The notes beneath the pieces are model-generated. The model had not been told where the DNA came from, ran no database searches, and was given only the letters and a program-made list of their open reading frames with translations. Made by a program: the position numbers and the translations under genes. Of a stretch of DNA of 64,000 nucleotides, positions 10,766 to 58,977 are shown in pieces. Position 1 is the stretch's first letter; each line of letters starts with the position of its first letter. This DNA is from Naegleria gruberi (Eukaryota): the NCBI GenBank assembly GCA_000004985.1, contig GG738868.1; one strand, given 5' to 3'.

Positions 10766-11458
10766 TTGACTTTAAAGAAGATTGATGAATATGAAAGATA
10801 TATTTACGCTGTACTATTATCCCAACAAGTTTATTGCCCATTCTTGCCACATGTTCTCAAGTATGGTACTGATTATATGGAATTAGAAAAGTTGGAACAA
10901 ATGGATCACGAGAGCAACTGGGATCATGATCAATTGATTAGCCTACTTTTGGACGAGTCTTGTGCTTTGAAATATTTACATTCTATCAATACTATTCACA
11001 GAGATGTCGAACCAAACAATATCCTGTTGAGAACAGGGGAAGATGACTATTGCCTATGTGTTGATCGATTTCGGTTTATCCTGCCACTTTGAAAGAAAAG
11101 AAAACGGCTTGCTAAACAAACAAACAAATTTAATGATTAAGGAAAACTTGGGTACATCCATATTTAGAGCTCCAGAAGTTGCCAACCAAGAAAACTATTC
11201 AGAAAAAGTGGATATCTTTAGCTTGGGAATGACTGCAATGTATTTATTTGATTTTGAGAAAATGGAAAGAGAATTCAAGAAGAATAGAAAATGTAATTGG
11301 TCTGATCTTTTAGATGAATTAATATGGAAGAGTCCTTTAATGATATTACAGGACAAATGATCGATACAGACGTTACAAAAAGACCAACAGCTGTACAATT
11401 AAAGAAACTGCTTGATGATTTGAATGACAAAAATGTTATGCAAATAAATGATTTTTGA
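10766..11458 (+). pseudogene. Protein-kinase-like pseudogene (C-lobe in three frames, degraded N-lobe)
   Basis: Catalytic-loop HRDVEPNNILL (Lys replaced by Glu), DFG motif YVLIDFGLS, APE motif GTSIFRAPEV, subdomain IX DIFSLGMT and the kinase C-terminus RPTAVQL. They are split over three reading frames, with shifts near 11043-11092 and about 11345. No intron-sized gaps or splice signals at the shifts. No intact N-lobe ORF in 10200-10765. Confidence 0.5.
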
Positions 11459-41392: not shown

Positions 41393-42606
41393 ATGAAGAT
41401 TACCATCACCCGATATTCAATCTCAAAGAAGGAGAATGAGAATGATAAGCAATATGTGGTAGGTTTTTATATTTTTCCAATGGAATCCGATGATGATGAC
41501 GATTTGTTGTGGTATTTGTTGATTTTTTAGTTGTATCATATTACTGTAAATTATGATGGAGTTATTTGGGAAATTGCGAGAAGGTATTCCGAATTTGAAA
41601 AGTTATATATTGCCTTGTCGAAAGTGATTAATACTAAAAAGTTTGGCAAATTTCCAAAGAAGGTGAGTTGCAGAGGAGTTTAATTGGAATTTCTGATAAT
41701 TGTCATGTTTAGTATTTGACTGGAAATATGAAACAGGATAAGATTTTGGAACGTCAGAATGATTTGCAAAATTATTTGGATAATTTATTGAGTGAACCTC
41801 TTGTTCCTAATTTGCAGGAAGTTTTGGAATTCTTTGAGGTCAATAAGCATTGGGAAGAAATTAAGAATTTTGCAGCTCTTGCCTCTACTTCTAGTAGTTC
41901 AAATATTGCCCCACCTGTGGTTTATAACATTGATAATAATAATAATTTGAAAATCACAATTGACCATAATTTAGAACATTTAGTTTATAATGTTATTGAT
42001 TCACCAACTGTTGCTTATCAAGAAACCGATTTTGATGAAGCTCCTCCAGTTGTTGTTGGTCAACCATCGAGACAGAGTGTTGAATCGAGACCATCTACTG
42101 AAAAATCAGAATCATCCCTTCAGGAATTTAACACACAATCTCTATTTGTAGCCATTCGTGATCACAATCCAAAAGATGAAACTGAATTGTCTTTCAAAGC
42201 GGGAGATGTCATTGAAGTGATTCAGAGAGGATCTTGTTCTTGTTCGGAACAAGATTGTTACTGGTATGGAAGAAATACAAGTGAAACAGGTTCACAACAA
42301 GGGTTCTTTGATGCCAGATGTTTGGATTTGGGCACTTTTAAACCAAAAGCATTCTCTGTTTTAATGACTGATGCTTACAATTCTGATGAGTCGATACAAA
42401 TTGATGGAACAATCAAGGTTATTGAAATTGACTATGAAGCTGAACGTGAGGATGAAATTAGTGTAAGAAGAGGACAAACTGTTAAAATCCTTCCAACTTC
42501 AAGACAAACTAGAAAGGGATGGAAATTAGTTGAGATTCTCTCTGAATCATGTCAAAGAGTTTCTGAAACTGGCTTCATTCCAACAGAATATTTAATGATT
42601 CTTTAA
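41393..42606 (+). CDS. PX-domain protein with two C-terminal SH3 domains (p47phox/NOX-organizer-like), 3 exons
   Basis: Exons 41393-41458, 41531-41662, 41713-42606 (GTAGGT and GTGAGT donors). PX core YHITVNYDGVIWEIARRYSEFEKLYIALSK..KFPKK-YLTG. SH3-1 LFVAIRDHNPKDETELSFKAGDVIEV. SH3-2 IKVIEIDYEAEREDEISVRRGQTVKIL. Confidence 0.75.
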
Positions 42607-52513: not shown

Positions 52514-55228
52514 TTACTTGAAATATTTAGCAATTCTGTTGGACATTTTGTATCTTAATGATGGTGGAGATTTATCCAAATTATTAATATAATAATCTTC
52601 CATTGGAGTTGGTGGATAATAGAGTGGAATGTGACATCTACTTCCAGAGTACTTTGAAAAACATCGACATGAATCAATTCCAATACAGAAACCATTTCCA
52701 GAACATACATCCACACTTGTTGCATTCTTTCCAAAACACTGCCATTCATCTACAGTAATAATAACATTAAATGCCTCACCTGAATCCAGTGTAAGAGGTA
52801 TCTTTCCATTTGGTTTTGCAAGTGCCAGAACAGGTTCATCATTATATAGACTCGTAGAGGTGGGAGCTGCTTGAAGATATTCGTTTAAACCTCTTGCATA
52901 AATATTGCCCCTATTGGTAACGTAAAGTGTAGCCATAGAACTGTCATCTCCAGCAGATACATCAACTACTAGCTCAGAGTTTGGAATTAGTTTGACAAGA
53001 GATGTTCCTGAATAATAGTACATTGCAATACCATCATCTGAAAGAAAAGCTGGAAGATTTCCACATATAATTTTGATTATTTTCTTTGAGCCAATTAAGC
53101 CGTTTTCCAATCTGGTCCAATTTGTAACTGTTGTAACAGTAGCACTATAGATTATTCTATAGTTTGAATTTTCACCAATAGCAAAGACCTTTCCTGACTT
53201 GGTCAAGATATAAAATGTGTTGGTGCAAATTGCAAAATCTTGAAGGGTTTCACCTATGGCACTAGTTGCATTGGAAATATCTAGCTCAGTCCATGAAGTT
53301 GCTATGGATGGCATGTTAGGAGCTCCAAAATTTCCAACAGCTCCTCTAACCACTATACTTCCATTATTCAATTGTATACCAAGGAAATTATATCCAGTAG
53401 CTATCTTTTTTGCAGTCCAATTTGGTGTCTCAGAAAATACATCAATTGGAGTGAAAAGAAATGAAGATATATAATCAATACCATACTGATAAGCATGGCC
53501 ACTTCCCCAACCATATACTTTTCCTGAACTTGTCAAAATTAATCCATTGGTTGCTGAAATTCGAATGTCAATAATTTCACTATTGTTATATTGTGTTGCA
53601 TTGACTTGTTGAGGAGGGGTTGAAGAGACAATTTCATTGCTGTTTAATGAGGTACCACTAGCACAAACACCCCAATTGTGGAGAGTTGAATTTCCTCCTT
53701 CATAATTGATATTAATATAGGAGCAACCATTAGTTGATCTCACTAAAACATTTCTCACATTATTTGCAAATGGATTGTAACCATTGAGTGTTAGAGGAGA
53801 AGGAAGAACTTGTTTGTAATCCCCATAACCCATTTGGCCTCTGTAATTATCACCAAATGCATAAAACTTTCCAGAGTTTCCACTTATTAAGGAATAACCA
53901 TTAAGAGTTAAAAATCCTTCAGAAGGAATTGTATCACCTCCAATATCTATATCATACATATCGTATGGTGATGTTCTTCCTCTATCAGGATCCTTTCCCC
54001 ATGATAACAAACTAGCAGCTCCCATAATACCAAACAAGCAAAAACCTGCATTACTACTTCTGTCAATGTCAAGTATTTCACCGCTTAAACCTCTTGTAGT
54101 GGCAGCACTATTAATTACAGATGTCAAATTATAGGGTGTATAAATAGGGGAACCTCCAAAAGCAGGATTAGAGCTTGCTTGTCCTTCATTATTTGCACCA
54201 AACACATAAACATGTTTTGACTCTGTTAATATTGTTCCAGTACGATCTCCAAGAGTAATCTTTATCGGTTTCTCAGTGGAATAATCTAATGGAAGGAGTT
54301 GTGGTTCTGAAAAGACACTTGTTCCAGTATTTCCAATTCCTAATGCTCCATCTACATTCGAACCCCAAACCAATACATGATAGGTAGAATTAATGACAGC
54401 TGCACTATAACTATAAAGACTCATCGACAGAACATTACGTAATTTGGGTAAAAGTGTTGGTGTGGAGTCAGTTCCAGTGTTTTCAGGAGTGTGACCTCTT
54501 AATCCATCACCCCAACCACCCCATGAAAAGATATGACCACTATCCATCAAGACTAAATAAGTTGGTTCGCCAAATACTCCACCAACATAAACCTGAGCTA
54601 TGTTTGCAGTGATAGATACTTGCAAATCTGGATCGACGAAAGTTGTTGGAACATCATATTTAGCTAAACCTAATCCAAATAATTGATGGACATAGACTTG
54701 ATTATCTGTGGTGGCCAGAATACATGTAAACCAACACTTGATTTTGTGAACTTCCTTATCTTTCAATGGATTGGTGGCTATTTTATCCTGACGATAGTAA
54801 CCTAAAGTTACATAATTTGGAATATTATAAGGAACTTCAGCAAATGCAAAATATGAATTACTATTATCTCCTGCCATGAGAATAGTTTGTCCAATCAATG
54901 AATTATCAGTACCATTTCTAAATGACAGTAAAACTGTCGTAAATGTCAAACCTCCTGTTATAACTGTTGGAGTGGTAATAACATTGCTCATTCCATAGGC
55001 AACATTCCATGTGTAATTATTAGAAAACATTTCTCCAAAGTGTTGCAATTCAACAGGTGTCTTGGCAGCATTCAGAATAGGATATGCCAAATTTCCGATC
55101 ATGTTACTTCCCCACACTGTTATTGAAGGATTCGAATAGGTTGCACATTGTGTTGATGTGGTGAAATAGAAGAGCAAGAAAGTGCAATAAACTAGTGCTG
55201 CAACAGATACCGTATATTTAGAAATCAT
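52514..55228 (-). CDS. Secreted protein with RCC1-like repeats and C-terminal EGF-like module
   Basis: Signal peptide MISKYTVSVAALVYCTFLLFYFTTSTQC. Repeated RCC1-type blades (HVLVWGSNVDGALGIG, VYVFGANNEGQASSN, FYAFGDNYRGQMGYGD, VYGWGSGHAYQYG, IFSWGGWGDGLRG). Cys pattern CSGNGFCIGIDSCRCFSKYSGSRC near the C-terminus. Confidence 0.55.
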   Translation of the reverse strand: MISKYTVSVAALVYCTFLLFYFTTSTQCATYSNPSITVWGSNMIGNLAYPILNAAKTPVELQHFGEMFSNNYTWNVAYGMSNVITTPTVITGGLTFTTVLLSFRNGTDNSLIGQTILMAGDNSNSYFAFAEVPYNIPNYVTLGYYRQDKIATNPLKDKEVHKIKCWFTCILATTDNQVYVHQLFGLGLAKYDVPTTFVDPDLQVSITANIAQVYVGGVFGEPTYLVLMDSGHIFSWGGWGDGLRGHTPENTGTDSTPTLLPKLRNVLSMSLYSYSAAVINSTYHVLVWGSNVDGALGIGNTGTSVFSEPQLLPLDYSTEKPIKITLGDRTGTILTESKHVYVFGANNEGQASSNPAFGGSPIYTPYNLTSVINSAATTRGLSGEILDIDRSSNAGFCLFGIMGAASLLSWGKDPDRGRTSPYDMYDIDIGGDTIPSEGFLTLNGYSLISGNSGKFYAFGDNYRGQMGYGDYKQVLPSPLTLNGYNPFANNVRNVLVRSTNGCSYININYEGGNSTLHNWGVCASGTSLNSNEIVSSTPPQQVNATQYNNSEIIDIRISATNGLILTSSGKVYGWGSGHAYQYGIDYISSFLFTPIDVFSETPNWTAKKIATGYNFLGIQLNNGSIVVRGAVGNFGAPNMPSIATSWTELDISNATSAIGETLQDFAICTNTFYILTKSGKVFAIGENSNYRIIYSATVTTVTNWTRLENGLIGSKKIIKIICGNLPAFLSDDGIAMYYYSGTSLVKLIPNSELVVDVSAGDDSSMATLYVTNRGNIYARGLNEYLQAAPTSTSLYNDEPVLALAKPNGKIPLTLDSGEAFNVIITVDEWQCFGKNATSVDVCSGNGFCIGIDSCRCFSKYSGSRCHIPLYYPPTPMEDYYINNLDKSPPSLRYKMSNRIAKYFK

Positions 55229-55601: not shown

Positions 55602-56621
55602 TCAATAAACAATGGCATGTTTAGAAACAGTTTTGATTGTTTGTATTATTTGTTGGACCATAAAATTATGAAACGGTTCGGTGAGGCCATTCTGGTGCTC
55701 TTCTAGTAGTTCCAAATATTTTGTTCTGCATTTCTTTTGTACAGTAATATCAAATAGTCCATATCTATTAAGAATCATATTCATCAATAATCGAGCAGTT
55801 CTTCCATTCCCATCCAGAAATGGGTGAATATGAAGAAATTTACAATGTGCTAGAATGGAAAAGAGTGCAGGATGTAATATTCCATTATCAACTCTTTCTC
55901 TATTCAAATGGAACCACTCAAAGTATTGTTTCATGATTTGAGGTACCTCCTGAGGGTAGGGTCTAACAGTTTCAGAACCCTTGACACGAATTGGGATGAG
56001 TCTATAATTCGATTCCATAAAACCTTCAACATTGCAATAACATTTACTCTTCCCAAAAAGTTCGGTGTGAATATTAAGCAACTGATTTTCGTTAAAATGG
56101 CTTAGTGGTTGTTCCTCTAATTTAGAAATATATTGGAAAGCATGGTGGTGGAACAGTACTTCTAGACATTCTCTTGTGGTTGCTTCTTTTTGCAAAATCT
56201 GACTGAAATCTTGTTGTGATACACCCATTAGTTGTTCAGAAGAGTAAGTGCCGAATGAGTCAAAGAGGATTTCGCAGTCTTTTTGCGATAAAGTATTTCC
56301 CTCAATGCTTGTGCTGTGGTGAGTATTTGAAAGACGATAATTTGCCCAGATGGCATGGTTTTTAGAAAGCTGTGGTACAATACTTGTGGATAAAGAATCT
56401 AAGTAACCTAAATGATAGATATTTGCCAATGGTTGCTCATCTTTGAAGATATTAGTGGCTCCCAACCACATTTCTCCAGAAAATGCCTTTTTAACTTTTT
56501 CTTCTGGTGAGAGGGAGTTATAGATAGAGTAAATCTCCAGCAAACGTTCCTTTCGGCGTGCTTCTTTGCTCTCTATTATAGTATTAAAGGTTGCATTTAA
56601 AAGAAGTCGTGAGGTACGCAT
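55602..56621 (-). CDS. Fic-domain protein (AMPylase/FICD-like, class II with N-terminal inhibitory motif), single exon
   Basis: Canonical Fic motif HPFLDGNGRTARLLMNMIL. Upstream STSIEGNT fits the (S/T)xxxE(G/N) inhibitory helix. No TM or TPR region. ATG at 56621. Confidence 0.8.
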   Translation of the reverse strand: MRTSRLLLNATFNTIIESKEARRKERLLEIYSIYNSLSPEEKVKKAFSGEMWLGATNIFKDEQPLANIYHLGYLDSLSTSIVPQLSKNHAIWANYRLSNTHHSTSIEGNTLSQKDCEILFDSFGTYSSEQLMGVSQQDFSQILQKEATTRECLEVLFHHHAFQYISKLEEQPLSHFNENQLLNIHTELFGKSKCYCNVEGFMESNYRLIPIRVKGSETVRPYPQEVPQIMKQYFEWFHLNRERVDNGILHPALFSILAHCKFLHIHPFLDGNGRTARLLMNMILNRYGLFDITVQKKCRTKYLELLEEHQNGLTEPFHNFMVQQIIQTIKTVSKHAIVY

Positions 56622-57003
56622 TTTGAATTTTTTATTGTTTTTTAATATATTAAGGATTATTTGAATTATATAAATGTTGTTTTTCTAATAATAACATGAT
56701 GCGGCAAGTAAACTCAACTTCTTTTGAAAAGAATTTGAAAATGCTAATTGCAGCATTCTCAAAAATATAGAAATGAGTAAGAACGAGTATTAATAGCAAC
56801 ATCGTATTATTCGAAATCTGTGTATTATTAATAGTGTTGCATCCCTTACAACTCTAAATCACGTTTGGGGTTTATTTAGATCAACAAGATTTGGTGCAAT
56901 GGAAATTAATGATCCTTCAAATTCCAAATCATGGTTTCATCAACGCGAGCGATTAAAATCACGTTAAATAGCTTAAAAAACAAACTTAAAAAAAAACAAG
57001 AAA

Positions 57004-58977
57004 ATGGTTTCAGCATCAACAACGAGAGCAAAAAATCGATTGTTAAGAGACTTGAAGGAGATTGAGAATAATCCATTAGAAACTGTGTATGCCCAACCTT
57101 TGCCAAACGATATATTTCATTGGTATGCAACAGTGTTGGCTCCAAAGGAATCTCGTTACCATGGAATTATATTGAATTTGAGTATTGTTTTCCCAGAAAC
57201 GTATCCGAAAGATCCACCCAAGGTTGTTTGCTCGACTCGTATTCACCACCATCATGTCTTTCCAACTTGGATCTGTTTGGACATGTTGAGAACTCACTTT
57301 TCATCAGAGCCTTACAGTGGATGGAGTTCCAGTTATTCTTGTTTGTCCATCTTGTTGCAGTTGCAATCCTTCTTATTGGAGGAGGAAGAACAGCAAAAAG
57401 ATTACATTAAGGAAGATATTGCATCATCAAGAGACTATTCTAATCTCAAAATAGGACATAATCCGAGTAAGGGAAATATTTGGCCACGAGCACCACATTG
57501 GAATGTGGATGAAATTATCAAATCAGAATATGATCCCTCTTTACAAACTAAAAAAAAGGATGAAACTCAATATGAGAAGGGTGTTGTTGACATGGATTTG
57601 GAAGAATTTATTGAGAAGGAGACGAAGCAAGCGAGCTCTGTAATGTCAAAGAAGAAGAGAAAAAAGATGAACCGATTACAAAGATCCAAAAAGGAGGAAA
57701 ATGATGAGAATGTCCCTTCAAGCAGTACATCTACTATTACTCACCAAGCACCTGTTCAATTAAACAAGATTGAAAAGATGAAGGACCTTCCAAATGAAAC
57801 ATTGATTCATATTTTGAGTTATCTATCTCTCATTGACTTGAAGAGAGTGAGCAACTCTTCCAATTTTATGAAACTCTTGTGTGAAAACAAGAGTTTGACA
57901 ACTGAAAGAGAATTGATTTGTTTCCACTCCAAAGTAACCTACAAAGAAGATATTCTTGGAGTTGGATTAACATTTGAAACAAAGGATGGTGGGGTGGTTG
58001 CCTCCATTTCTACTCCATTAGATTTGGTATCAAAAAGTGCATTCTTTGATGAAAGTGTCAGAAAGAGTGTTTGGGGTGTTTTGACTCAACAATGGATTCC
58101 AATATATATTAATAAGGAACATGGAAACTTTGAGGCTCTAAAACAAGCCGTCAAGAGTATTGCCAAGTCATATCCATCACTATCTCAATCCAATAAGTTT
58201 GACAGTCCAGAAATCTATATTGATCTATTGTGTAAATTGATGAATACCATGGTGGTTGAGATTATGAAAGGTCAAACCCATGCCTCAATCAAGGCCCTGT
58301 ATGGATATATGTACTTTCACCGATGGCTGATTTACTTGGTTCAAAAGTTCCCATCTGCTCTCAAAGATATTGAGGAACAAGTCAAATCCTTTGTTACCAA
58401 TGAGAATTCACGTAAAAAGTCAAATTGTCCAAACATTGGCGAATTCCTTCCAAAACTTTCAGTTTTGGGTCCATCTGGTTTAACTTGGGATTATGTTAAA
58501 TCATCTGTTGTTGAGGAAACCTCTATTAGAAATCAACTTTGGGTCATCAAGCAGTTCCCTTCTCTATCTTCCACTAATGATAGTTCAGATGATTTCAGAT
58601 GCACCAATTCGTGGGTGGCAAACAATGTCTCTTGTAAGCTAATTATGTTCCATGTATTCTTCTTGAGAAATGTTGTAGAATCTTATACTGACCTTTCTCT
58701 TGAAGAATTTGGAAGATTGTACGATAATAACTTTGGTTGCCCACCAAAGACAAAGAATGGTGATTTTTTGGAAGATGTTCTTCAAAGGGAGGTATTCACA
58801 ATTCAAAATGTGTCATGTTTCCAACAATATTTCGAATACGTCGGTTTACCAAATATGAAAACAAGAACATCTGTTGCTCAATATTTGAGAAATTGTGTTA
58901 CCATTAGTGAAAAGAGAAGATATCATAATAATTTCAAAAATGGAAACAAGAACAACTTTTACAAAAATAAAAAGTAG
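57004..58977 (+). CDS. UBC (E2) core with HPN replaced by HHH, fused to F-box-like motif and ~350-aa C-terminal domain
   Basis: N-terminal UBC fold RLLRDLKEIENNP...IFHWYATVLAPKESRYHGIILNLSIVFPETYPKDPPKVVCSTRIHHHHVFPTWICLDML with the active-site Cys present. Acidic linker and basic NLS-like KKKRKKMNRLQRSKK. F-box-like LPNETLIHILSYLSLIDLKRVSNSSNFMKLL. Uncharacterised C-terminal region. Single 657-aa exon. Confidence 0.65.
   Translation: MVSASTTRAKNRLLRDLKEIENNPLETVYAQPLPNDIFHWYATVLAPKESRYHGIILNLSIVFPETYPKDPPKVVCSTRIHHHHVFPTWICLDMLRTHFSSEPYSGWSSSYSCLSILLQLQSFLLEEEEQQKDYIKEDIASSRDYSNLKIGHNPSKGNIWPRAPHWNVDEIIKSEYDPSLQTKKKDETQYEKGVVDMDLEEFIEKETKQASSVMSKKKRKKMNRLQRSKKEENDENVPSSSTSTITHQAPVQLNKIEKMKDLPNETLIHILSYLSLIDLKRVSNSSNFMKLLCENKSLTTERELICFHSKVTYKEDILGVGLTFETKDGGVVASISTPLDLVSKSAFFDESVRKSVWGVLTQQWIPIYINKEHGNFEALKQAVKSIAKSYPSLSQSNKFDSPEIYIDLLCKLMNTMVVEIMKGQTHASIKALYGYMYFHRWLIYLVQKFPSALKDIEEQVKSFVTNENSRKKSNCPNIGEFLPKLSVLGPSGLTWDYVKSSVVEETSIRNQLWVIKQFPSLSSTNDSSDDFRCTNSWVANNVSCKLIMFHVFFLRNVVESYTDLSLEEFGRLYDNNFGCPPKTKNGDFLEDVLQREVFTIQNVSCFQQYFEYVGLPNMKTRTSVAQYLRNCVTISEKRRYHNNFKNGNKNNFYKNKK

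What the first reader, a model, noticed from the sequence alone, without database searches (positions are those of the whole stretch)
55602..56621. Cytosolic class-II Fic (AMPylase-type) gene in a non-metazoan eukaryote
A perfect Fic active-site motif HPFLDGNGRTARLL and an upstream STSIEGN inhibitory-helix motif are present. The TM anchor and TPR region of metazoan FICD/HYPE are absent. Fic enzymes are mainly bacterial (toxins, regulators) with a single conserved metazoan ER member, so a soluble intronless Fic among intron-bearing neighbours suggests horizontal acquisition or an uncharacterised eukaryotic AMPylase.
Basis: partly seen in the sequence, partly recalled or inferred. Interest (0 to 1): 0.55.

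Follow-up and report, generated by a model that had tools for sequence, protein, structure and literature searches.

The report
Soluble Fic enzyme gene in Naegleria
This is a real, intact Naegleria gruberi gene for a self-inhibited Fic (AMP-transferase type) enzyme; it is not the animal FICD gene but belongs to a small, patchy family shared by a few amoebae, a fungus-like outgroup and giant-virus-like DNA.

Summary

The gene is not an FICD orthologue: bacterial class II Fic proteins score higher than FICD against the family profile.

It is also not a Naegleria-only oddity. It belongs to a discrete family of about 25 sequences, defined by a ~95-aa N-terminal helical extension and an insertion after the inhibitory helix. 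Members occur:
- on eukaryote-like metagenome contigs (62% and 60% identity);
- in Balamuthia mandrillaris, with an in-frame stop;
- on densely coding, ORFan-rich contigs, one carrying an NCLDV minor capsid protein gene.

A Fusarium protein shares the extension.

GC and GC3 are host-like, and both flanking genes are also intronless. There is therefore no signature of recent transfer.

The likely function is an auto-inhibited AMPylase/deAMPylase with an unknown target. Interest is moderate.

The parts
55602..56621 (-). Complete single-exon CDS (339 aa plus stop) of the Naegleria gruberi Fic protein
   Evidence: ORF list. 100% identity and coverage to the N. gruberi predicted protein P0001. Pfam Fic. 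AF2 pLDDT 93.8.
56337..56621 (-). N-terminal extension (aa 1-95): family-specific helical module with the block R..L..IY..(F)..L..E...(A).SG.(V)W
56295..56315 (-). Inhibitory-helix motif S103-T-S-I-E107-G-N ((S/T)xxxE(G/N)); E107 codon at 56301-56303
   Evidence: Read directly from the sequence. E107 and G108 are invariant in A2 and A3. Aligned with FICD HTVAIEGN.
56172..56252 (-). Family-specific insertion (aa ~124-150, 'GTYSSEQLMGVSQQDFSQILQKEATTR') between the inhibitory helix and the Fic core, at the position of the FICD dimer-relay segment
   Evidence: Gap opposite FICD in hhalign. Conserved 'G(I/V)S(E/Q).(D/E)' block in A2. The position of the FICD dimer interface is taken from PMC6826200.
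55800..55826 (-). Fic catalytic motif H266-P-F-L-D270-G-N272-G-R274 (followed by R277); H266 codon at 55824-55826
   Evidence: Six-frame motif scan gives a single hit. H266, P267, D270, G271, N272 and G273 are invariant in A2; R274 and R277 are conserved in at least 90%.
55605..56171 (-). Fic core and C-terminal helices (aa 151-339)
56622..57003 (.). 382-bp intergenic region between the divergently oriented Fic and UBC/F-box genes (presumed shared promoter region; inference only)
   Evidence: Coordinates of the two ORFs. No functional test was made.

Best explanation
The ORF is a functional, host-resident, single-exon gene of Naegleria gruberi. It encodes a soluble class II Fic enzyme.

Mechanism (inferred from conserved residues and from FICD and bacterial class II Fic biochemistry):
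- His266 acts as general base.
- Asp270, Asn272, Arg274 and Arg277 position Mg-ATP.
- A target Ser/Thr/Tyr hydroxyl docked on the flap would receive AMP.
- In the resting state, Glu107 at the end of the N-terminal inhibitory helix engages Arg277 and blocks productive ATP binding. The enzyme is therefore auto-inhibited by default.
- As in FICD, it may work mainly as a Glu-dependent deAMPylase until an unknown signal releases the helix.

The target is unknown. The TPR module that gives FICD its BiP specificity is replaced by a different ~95-aa helical extension. The segment corresponding to the FICD dimer relay carries a family-specific insertion.

Evolution:
- It is not an FICD orthologue.
- It belongs to a small discrete family: a Naegleria-like clade, a Balamuthia pseudogene, and about 20 environmental sequences, several on giant-virus-like contigs. 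More distant relatives sharing the extension occur in Fusarium.
- The family's Fic core is closest to bacterial class II Fic proteins.
- The most likely history is an old lateral acquisition within the amoeba / giant-virus gene pool, ultimately from bacteria. It was followed by long residence in the Naegleria lineage, shown by host-like composition and saturated synonymous divergence from its closest relatives.
For: Gene and enzyme class:
- Intact ORF with a Pfam Fic domain.
- Catalytic motif and inhibitory Glu are invariant across 16 family members and across 76 sequences including bacterial ones.
- E107 aligns with FICD E234 and H266 with H363.
- AF2 pLDDT 93.8, pTM 0.91.
- Best folds are FICD and BT_2513.

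Host residence:
- Flanked by ordinary eukaryotic genes: RCC1/EGF, UBC+F-box, SH3/PX, VPS9, MORN, GT2 and TPT.
- GC and GC3 lie within the host range.

Selection:
- dN/dS is 0.27 between the two closest environmental homologues.
- dS against N. gruberi is saturated, with dN 0.26.

Family:
- Exhaustive phmmer finds full-length homologues such as P0121 (39% identity, 231 bits, aligned 14-331).
- The profile search shows a gap: 334-444 bits for the family, at most 219 for everything else.
- The N-terminal HMM is family-specific.

Not FICD:
- The family HMM scores bacterial HTH-Fic at ~175-180 bits and FICD representatives at 107-144.
- FICD is never sister in 300 NJ bootstraps.

Virus link:
- L088 carries NCLDV minor capsid protein P9 (PF19066, E 1.2e-12) with 89% coding density.
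- L004/L093 carries TK, an RNR large subunit at most 52% identical to anything, an F-box-like LRR protein and ORFans, with 85% coding density and no Shine-Dalgarno.
- In the rooted full-length NJ tree, the Naegleria clade is sister to P0392+L004 (97% bootstrap). Balamuthia is sister to L088+L005 (72%).

Against: - No biochemical or expression data exist. Function is inferred by homology only.
- The phylogenies are neighbour-joining with a simple distance correction. Family monophyly on the Fic core alone has only 46% bootstrap.
- Only one contig (L088) has a hallmark viral gene. The viral nature of L004, L005, L086 and L090 is inferred from density, ORFans and gene content. No Mimivirus-type AAAATTGA promoter was found.
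- BFVD (structures of catalogued viral proteins) holds no close relative, and the IMG/VR scan returned only phage-type Fic.
- The direction of transfer (virus to host or host to virus) is unresolved.
- The Fusarium-type outgroup with the same N-terminal extension is also compatible with an older eukaryotic origin.
- Two close relatives carry lesions (a frameshift and a 25-aa deletion), so the gene may be dispensable.
Confidence: 0.6

Rival explanations
1. Direct bacterium-to-Naegleria horizontal transfer. A bacterial class II Fic gene, for example from prey or an endosymbiont, was inserted into the Naegleria lineage and lost its C-terminal HTH domain.
For: Outside the family, the best hits to the single-sequence query are bacterial MerR- or excisionase-HTH Fic proteins at 30-35% identity and 100-118 bits. 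They include Patescibacteria, Alphaproteobacteria, Babeliales and Chlamydiae. On the Fic core, distances from N. gruberi to these (1.21-1.3) are similar to distances to family members.
Against: A ~95-aa N-terminal extension and an insertion are shared with Balamuthia (insertion), virus-like contigs and a Fusarium-type group, but with no bacterial sequence. The family is separated from bacteria by a gap of more than 100 bits. The bacterial step, if any, therefore predates the Naegleria copy. There is no compositional trace of recent transfer.
Confidence: 0.15
2. Ancient eukaryotic gene inherited vertically with massive loss, possibly a mitochondrial Fic. Viral copies would be captures from hosts.
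For: - The N-terminal extension is shared across Discoba (Naegleria), Fungi (Fusarium XP_053008514.1) and unidentified eukaryote-like contigs.
- The Balamuthia copy sits in ordinary eukaryotic context.
- Many members begin with acid-free, Arg/Lys-rich segments: median first acidic residue 18.5 against 8.5 in window ORFs.
- Giant viruses of Naegleria are known to capture host genes (PMC11043551).
Against: Among named organisms in 5.8 billion clustered proteins, only N. gruberi, Balamuthia and Fusarium appeared. The two amoeba copies each pair with a different virus-like lineage rather than with each other. The Balamuthia copy is broken. No presequence predictor could be run, and AF2 builds residues ~11-36 into a confident structural helix.
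Confidence: 0.18
3. Recent endogenised giant-virus fragment (GEVE), a bacterial contaminant in the assembly, or a decaying pseudogene without function.
For: Family members occur on virus-like contigs. CAI is the lowest of 27 window ORFs (0.624). Relatives show a frameshift, a deletion and an in-frame stop.
Against: - No NCLDV hallmark or viral-type gene appears among 11 annotated neighbours across ~22 kb.
- GC and GC3 are host-like.
- The gene is embedded in a 427-kb N. gruberi scaffold.
- The ORF is intact, with every catalytic and regulatory residue conserved.
- There is purifying selection in the sister lineage.
Confidence: 0.05

Closest known systems
Human FICD/HYPE (PDB 4u04, 6i7g-l; C. 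elegans FIC-1 5jj6)
   Different: No TM anchor and no TPR1/TPR2, which determine BiP specificity (title and abstract of PMC8065156, listed). Residues 1-69 do not align with FICD. There is an ~18-25-aa insertion where FICD has its dimer-relay segment (K256/L258). It is not an orthologue: FICD scores lower than bacterial Fic against the family profile and is never sister.
Bacterial class II Fic proteins with a C-terminal MerR or excisionase HTH (Patescibacteria, Alphaproteobacteria, Babeliales, Chlamydiae MAGs), and stand-alone BT_2513 (3cuc) and CdFic (4x2c)
   Different: They match only from residue ~70-100 onward. They lack the N-terminal extension and the insertion. The Naegleria protein lacks any HTH domain.
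Balamuthia mandrillaris 'Cell filamentation protein Fic' (KAL6056783.1 / KAL6053843.1)
   Same: Member of the same family: 253 bits against the family HMM, with the same insertion and motifs. It sits in an ordinary eukaryotic chromosomal context in another free-living amoeba.
   Different: It belongs to the other subgroup, sister to the NCLDV-type contigs L088/L005. It has an in-frame stop at the conserved Arg, and no N-terminal extension was detected. It is probably a pseudogene.
Fusarium falciforme 'Fido domain-containing protein' (XP_053008514.1) and environmental P0195 and P0221
   Same: They share the N-terminal extension block (…KLLEKIYKP…GKSGLVWEEYF…) and a class II layout. They are the nearest outgroup in the NJ tree.
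   Different: Much more divergent. They have longer N-termini, and the inhibitory motif reads AIEDN in Fusarium. They score below the family gap.
Eukaryotic Fic groups E1-E4 of Khater & Mohanty 2015 (PMC4454073)
   Same: Prior description of sporadic eukaryotic Fic proteins, explained by several independent transfers from bacteria.
   Different: Naegleria, Balamuthia and giant viruses are not mentioned there. Whether this family equals one of E1-E4 could not be tested.

Membership tests
Fic/Fido superfamily (Pfam PF02661) | Significant match to the Fic HMM | tested here: met
   E 3.6e-16, 60.2 bits against a cut-off of 24, covering aa 176-284.
Fic/Fido superfamily (Pfam PF02661) | Active-site motif HPFx(D/E)GN(G/K)R | tested here: met
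   HPFLDGNGR at aa 266-274, the single occurrence in the window. Invariant in the family.
Fic/Fido superfamily (Pfam PF02661) | All-helical Fic fold | tested here: met
Fic/Fido superfamily (Pfam PF02661) | Nucleotidyl (AMP) transfer activity dependent on the motif His | not testable with these tools
   Needs recombinant protein and labelled ATP.
Class II Fic (Engel et al. 2012 classification) | Inhibitory helix with (S/T)xxxE(G/N) N-terminal to the core in the same polypeptide | tested here: met
   S103-T-S-I-E107-G-N lies 159 residues upstream of H266. It is in helix 89-106 of the model and aligns with FICD TVAIE234GN.
Class II Fic (Engel et al. 2012 classification) | Glu contacts the second Arg of the motif and obstructs ATP gamma-phosphate | not testable with these tools
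Both residues (E107, R277) are conserved.
Metazoan FICD/HYPE orthologue | N-terminal type II TM anchor | tested here: not met
   The best 19-residue hydropathy is 1.27, and it lies at aa 247, not at the N-terminus. FICD representatives score 1.9-3.4 in their first 80 residues.
Metazoan FICD/HYPE orthologue | Two TPR motifs preceding the Fic domain | tested here: not met
Metazoan FICD/HYPE orthologue | Phylogenetic grouping with FICD | tested here: not met
   The family HMM scores FICD at 107-144 bits, below bacterial Fic at 175-180. Family+FICD was recovered in 0 of 300 NJ bootstraps. NJ only; ML was not available.
Bacterial HTH-Fic (MerR/excisionase fusion) | C-terminal HTH domain (PF00376/PF13411/PF12728) | tested here: not met
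   Only PF02661 was found, and the protein ends ~65 residues after the motif.
N-extension Fic family (defined here: Naegleria / Balamuthia / giant-virus-like contigs) | Conserved ~95-aa N-terminal extension, plus an insertion after the inhibitory helix, plus a family-profile score above the gap | tested here: met
   404 bits against the family HMM, with a gap at 219-227 bits. The N-terminal HMM scores 83-107 bits. See alignment A2.
Giant endogenous viral element (GEVE) | Neighbouring NCLDV hallmark genes and/or deviating composition | tested here: not met
   Neighbours are RCC1/EGF, UBC+F-box, SH3/PX, His phosphatase, MORN, VPS9, GT2 and TPT. GC profile is flat at 0.27-0.40. Fic GC is 0.361 and GC3 0.31, both within range.

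The most novel reading that the evidence does not exclude
A previously unrecognised Fic AMPylase/deAMPylase family circulates between giant viruses (Nucleocytoviricota) and free-living amoebae of unrelated supergroups (Naegleria in Discoba, Balamuthia in Amoebozoa). Viral copies would serve to reprogramme a host target, for example an Hsp70-type chaperone, during infection. Naegleria has domesticated one copy, possibly directed to mitochondria by a short basic N-terminus.
Probability: 0.3. Interest if true: 0.6.

Novelty: new member of a known kind. Interest (0 to 1): 0.4.

Why it matters
Outside animals, eukaryotic Fic enzymes are almost unstudied. FICD is the only one with a known substrate and switch.

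This protein keeps the full catalytic and auto-inhibitory apparatus. It swaps the substrate-recognition module and remodels the segment that couples oligomerisation to activity in FICD. It is therefore a natural experiment on how Fic specificity and regulation are re-wired.

If the link to giant-virus contigs holds, it would add AMPylation to the host-manipulation tools that giant viruses and amoebae exchange. It would also give a tractable model, since N. gruberi can be cultured axenically.

If the link does not hold, this is simply one more laterally acquired Fic gene. That kind of event is already documented.

Tried and rejected
- Two metagenome-contig scans, one with the single protein and one with alignment A1, confirmed no relative.
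- The IMG/VR scan with the family alignment returned only phage/prophage-type class II Fic, matching from residue ~85-100 onward. INPHARED tblastn gave only Streptococcus and Listeria phage Fic at 23-29% identity.
- The afdb50 fold library was unavailable. BFVD gave no close viral structure.
- A homology search with the L004 RNR large subunit, meant to name its source, gave nothing above 52% identity. Bacteroidota and fungi were mixed, so no taxon could be assigned.
- The Mimivirus early-promoter octamer AAAATTGA is absent from the virus-like contigs. No shared upstream motif was obvious.
- Synteny: no gene other than Fic is shared between the window and any related locus.
- Literature searches for 'Naegleria + Fic domain' and 'giant virus + Fic domain' returned nothing. 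The Naegleriavirus paper does not mention Fic.
- A regex attempt to delimit presequences failed. Only the position of the first acidic residue was used.
- The idea that the odd C-terminus of P0002 reflects an intron was rejected. It is a 1-bp frameshift.
- A recent-transfer signature in composition was looked for and not found.

Full report
**1. Observation**

Six-frame scanning finds HPFLDGNGR once in the 64-kb window (aa 266-274; nt 55800-55826). STSIEGN lies at aa 103-109 (nt 56295-56315).

Pfam assigns a Fic domain at E 3.6e-16, 60.2 bits against a cut-off of 24. NCBIfam gives only sub-threshold matches to bacterial Fic models.

The product is 100% identical over its full length to 'predicted protein [Naegleria gruberi]' on a 427,589-bp scaffold. 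The window is therefore N. gruberi nuclear DNA (GC ~0.33), and the public gene model equals the ORF.

**2. Anatomy and fold**

There is no hydrophobic segment of TM quality (maximum 19-residue Kyte-Doolittle mean 1.27) and no TPR or HTH domain.

An AlphaFold2 model built on a 76-sequence alignment is confident (pLDDT 93.8, pTM 0.91) and all-helical. Its best structural matches are:
- other bacterial Fic proteins.

Only about 240 of the 339 residues are matched. The first ~95 residues (helices 2-36, 39-48, 50-56, 68-80, 82-86) have no structural counterpart.

Profile-profile alignment with a vertebrate FICD representative (probability 99.8) places HSTSIEGN on HTVAIEGN. E107 is thus the equivalent of the inhibitory Glu234, H266 of His363 and R277 of Arg374. 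The inhibitory helix is N-terminal and in the same chain, which makes this a class II Fic.

Between the inhibitory helix and the core there is an insertion of roughly 18-25 residues. It falls where FICD has the Lys256/Leu258 dimer-relay segment (FICD mechanism from PMC6826200).

**3. Relatives**

A word-indexed search found only two close homologues. They are 62% and 60% identical (P0002, P0003) and come from metagenomes. After them came thousands of bacterial class II Fic proteins with C-terminal MerR or excisionase HTH domains, at 30-35% identity.

The exhaustive phmmer search over 1.84 billion representatives changed the picture. It revealed about a dozen ~340-aa proteins that align from residue ~10 to ~330. 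Examples are P0121 (39% identity, 231 bits), P0122 and P0123.

These proteins share the N-terminal extension, with a conserved block R..L..IY..F..L..E...A.SG.VWW, and they share the insertion. Three results show the family is discrete:
- A profile of the family separates members (334-444 bits) from everything else (at most 219 bits).
- An HMM of the N-terminal region alone hits only family members. It also hits three more distant proteins, one of which is a Fusarium falciforme Fido-domain protein.
- Bacterial proteins match that HMM only from the helix just before the inhibitory helix.

The catalytic motif and the inhibitory Glu are invariant in all 16 aligned members.

**4. Who carries the family**

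- **L001 (P0002).** This contig is eukaryotic. It carries an F-box/LRR gene, a SHIPPO/sperm-tail repeat protein (54.7 bits), a TauD protein with a Q-rich insert, and S/T/P/Q-rich ORFs. GC is 0.41. It shares no other gene with the window. It is probably another amoeboflagellate.
- **P0155/P0480.** These are annotated 'Cell filamentation protein Fic' of Balamuthia mandrillaris. The locus lies among ordinary eukaryotic genes (Zip, Got1, BSD, RNase PH, carnitine acyltransferase) at GC 0.51. The reading frame carries an in-frame stop at the conserved Arg (…VIPKKD*AKYLACFDPYF…), and no N-terminal extension was detectable. It is probably a pseudogene.
- **L088 (P0390).** It encodes an NCLDV minor capsid protein P9 (PF19066, E 1.2e-12, above threshold), an AAA ATPase and a carbonic anhydrase. 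Coding density is 89%. This is a giant-virus contig.
- **L004/L093 (P0121).** It carries thymidine kinase, an RNR large subunit no more than 52% identical to anything in 5.8 billion proteins, an F-box-like LRR protein and ORFans. Coding density is 85% and there is no Shine-Dalgarno.
- **L005, L086 and L090.** These contigs are also ORFan-rich. L086 (88% coding) and L090 (76%) are dense; L005 is looser at 58%. They carry AlkB-like, LRAT, DUF3990, helicase, AAA, DUF285 and ankyrin genes.

I regard the contigs in the last two bullets as giant-virus-like but not proven viral. Catalogued viral proteins (BFVD) and IMG/VR hold no member of the family.

**5. Phylogeny (neighbour-joining only; no ML tool was available)**

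On the Fic core:
- The Naegleria-like trio has 100% bootstrap.
- The family as a whole has 46%.
- FICD never groups with it.
- The family HMM scores bacterial HTH-Fic at ~175-180 bits and FICD representatives at 107-144 bits.

On full-length sequences rooted with the Fusarium-type group:
- The Naegleria clade is sister to P0392 + L004, the virus-like pair (97%).
- The Balamuthia copy is sister to L088 (NCLDV) + L005 (72%).

So two unrelated amoebae each pair with a different virus-like lineage. That fits virus-host exchange, but the direction is unresolved. The Fusarium-type outgroup leaves an older eukaryotic origin open.

**6. Is it foreign in the Naegleria genome?**

No compositional sign of this was found. 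GC is 0.361 and GC3 is 0.31, both within the range of 26 other ORFs of at least 250 aa. Only the window-referenced CAI is marginally the lowest (0.624 against 0.653-0.823).

Both flanking genes are uninterrupted single ORFs, so lack of introns is unremarkable. Neighbours across ~22 kb are ordinary cellular genes. The locus is therefore not a viral island or a contaminant.

Synonymous sites are saturated between N. gruberi and its 62-64%-identical relatives. Those two relatives show dN/dS of 0.27. This indicates long residence and purifying selection. However, each of the two relatives carries a lesion: a 1-bp frameshift seen in two independent metagenomes, and a 25-aa deletion.

**7. Mechanism**

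*Shown.* All residues needed for Fic catalysis (H266, D270, N272, R274, R277) are present, as is the inhibitory Glu on an N-terminal helix. They sit in a confidently predicted Fic fold and are invariant across the family.

*Inferred from FICD and bacterial class II Fic (PMC6826200).* The resting enzyme is auto-inhibited by an E107-R277 engagement. It may act as a Glu-dependent deAMPylase and switch to AMPylation on release of the helix.

*Unknown.* The target, the releasing signal and the localisation are not known. The TPR module that directs FICD to BiP (PMC8065156) is replaced by an unrelated helical extension, and the dimer-relay segment is remodelled. Specificity and regulation are therefore likely to differ.

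'Cytosolic' is not established. Many family members start with acid-free, basic segments: the median first acidic residue is at 18.5, against 8.5 for window ORFs. For the Naegleria protein the signal is weak, with two Arg and the first Glu at position 17. No predictor was available.

**8. Comparison with what is known, and verdict**

Sporadic eukaryotic Fic proteins, and their explanation by multiple transfers, are already published (PMC2686095; PMC4454073 with groups E1-E4). The premise of 'a single metazoan member' is therefore outdated. The gene itself is in public databases as an uncharacterised predicted protein.

Searches of the paper library found nothing on three points:
- the discrete N-extension family;
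- its occurrence in Balamuthia;
- its presence on giant-virus-type contigs.

I file the gene as a new member of a known kind (class II Fic). It is not an FICD orthologue. Interest is moderate at 0.4.

The most novel reading that the evidence does not exclude is a Fic family exchanged between giant viruses and amoebae. I give it a probability of about 0.3.

Noticed in passing
window 57004-58977 (+): A single 657-aa ORF fuses a ubiquitin-conjugating E2 core (PF00179, aa 12-140) with an F-box (PF12937/PF00646, aa 260-298). An E2 and an SCF-adaptor motif in one polypeptide is an unusual architecture.
   Followed up: no
window 52514-55228 (-): A 904-aa RCC1-repeat protein with a hydrophobic signal-like N-terminus and a C-terminal EGF-like module. 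It looks like a secreted or surface RCC1-propeller protein.
   Followed up: no
L001 2150-2280 and L002 (P0002); L003 (P0003): The two closest homologues are both damaged. P0002 has a 1-bp frameshift that replaces the last ~25 residues, and it is identical in two independent metagenomes. P0003 lacks 25 residues of the Fic core. Even so, dN/dS between them is 0.27.
   Followed up: partly
L091 10311-11069 (Balamuthia mandrillaris JAVKOQ020000239.1): The Balamuthia family member has an in-frame stop exactly at the conserved Arg, and homology continues for 57 codons beyond it. The annotated models (226 and 267 aa) end at that stop.
   Followed up: partly
L088 1151-2716; L086 7876-8664; P0136 contig 23-511: AAA-type ATPase genes lie beside or near the Fic gene on several virus-like contigs. 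This may be a conserved gene pair.
   Followed up: no
L092 3283-4440 and 12283-12440: The eukaryote-like contig carrying the outgroup protein P0195 holds a second Fic gene about 8 kb away.
   Followed up: no
C-termini of P0125, P0131, P0133, P0391 and L091 ~11040-11069: Subgroup-B members end in a conserved G-[VS]-[VIM]-P-[DES]-F-[DV] tail that the Naegleria clade lacks. It could be a short linear motif.
   Followed up: no
N-termini of family proteins (e.g. P0391, P0128, P0124, P0123; window 56574-56621): The N-termini are variable in length, free of Asp/Glu and rich in Arg/Lys/Ser/Leu. They precede the conserved block and resemble mitochondrial presequences. The confirmed viral copy P0390 lacks such a segment.
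   Followed up: partly
window 41728-42606 (+): The SH3 protein ORF begins in the middle of a PX domain (profile positions 47-83 at aa 2-38). An upstream exon and an intron are therefore expected. Introns do exist in the window, but not in the genes flanking Fic.
   Followed up: no
P0004 (531 aa, Logan contig): The best-scoring non-family hit is a protein with two tandem class II Fic domains.
   Followed up: no
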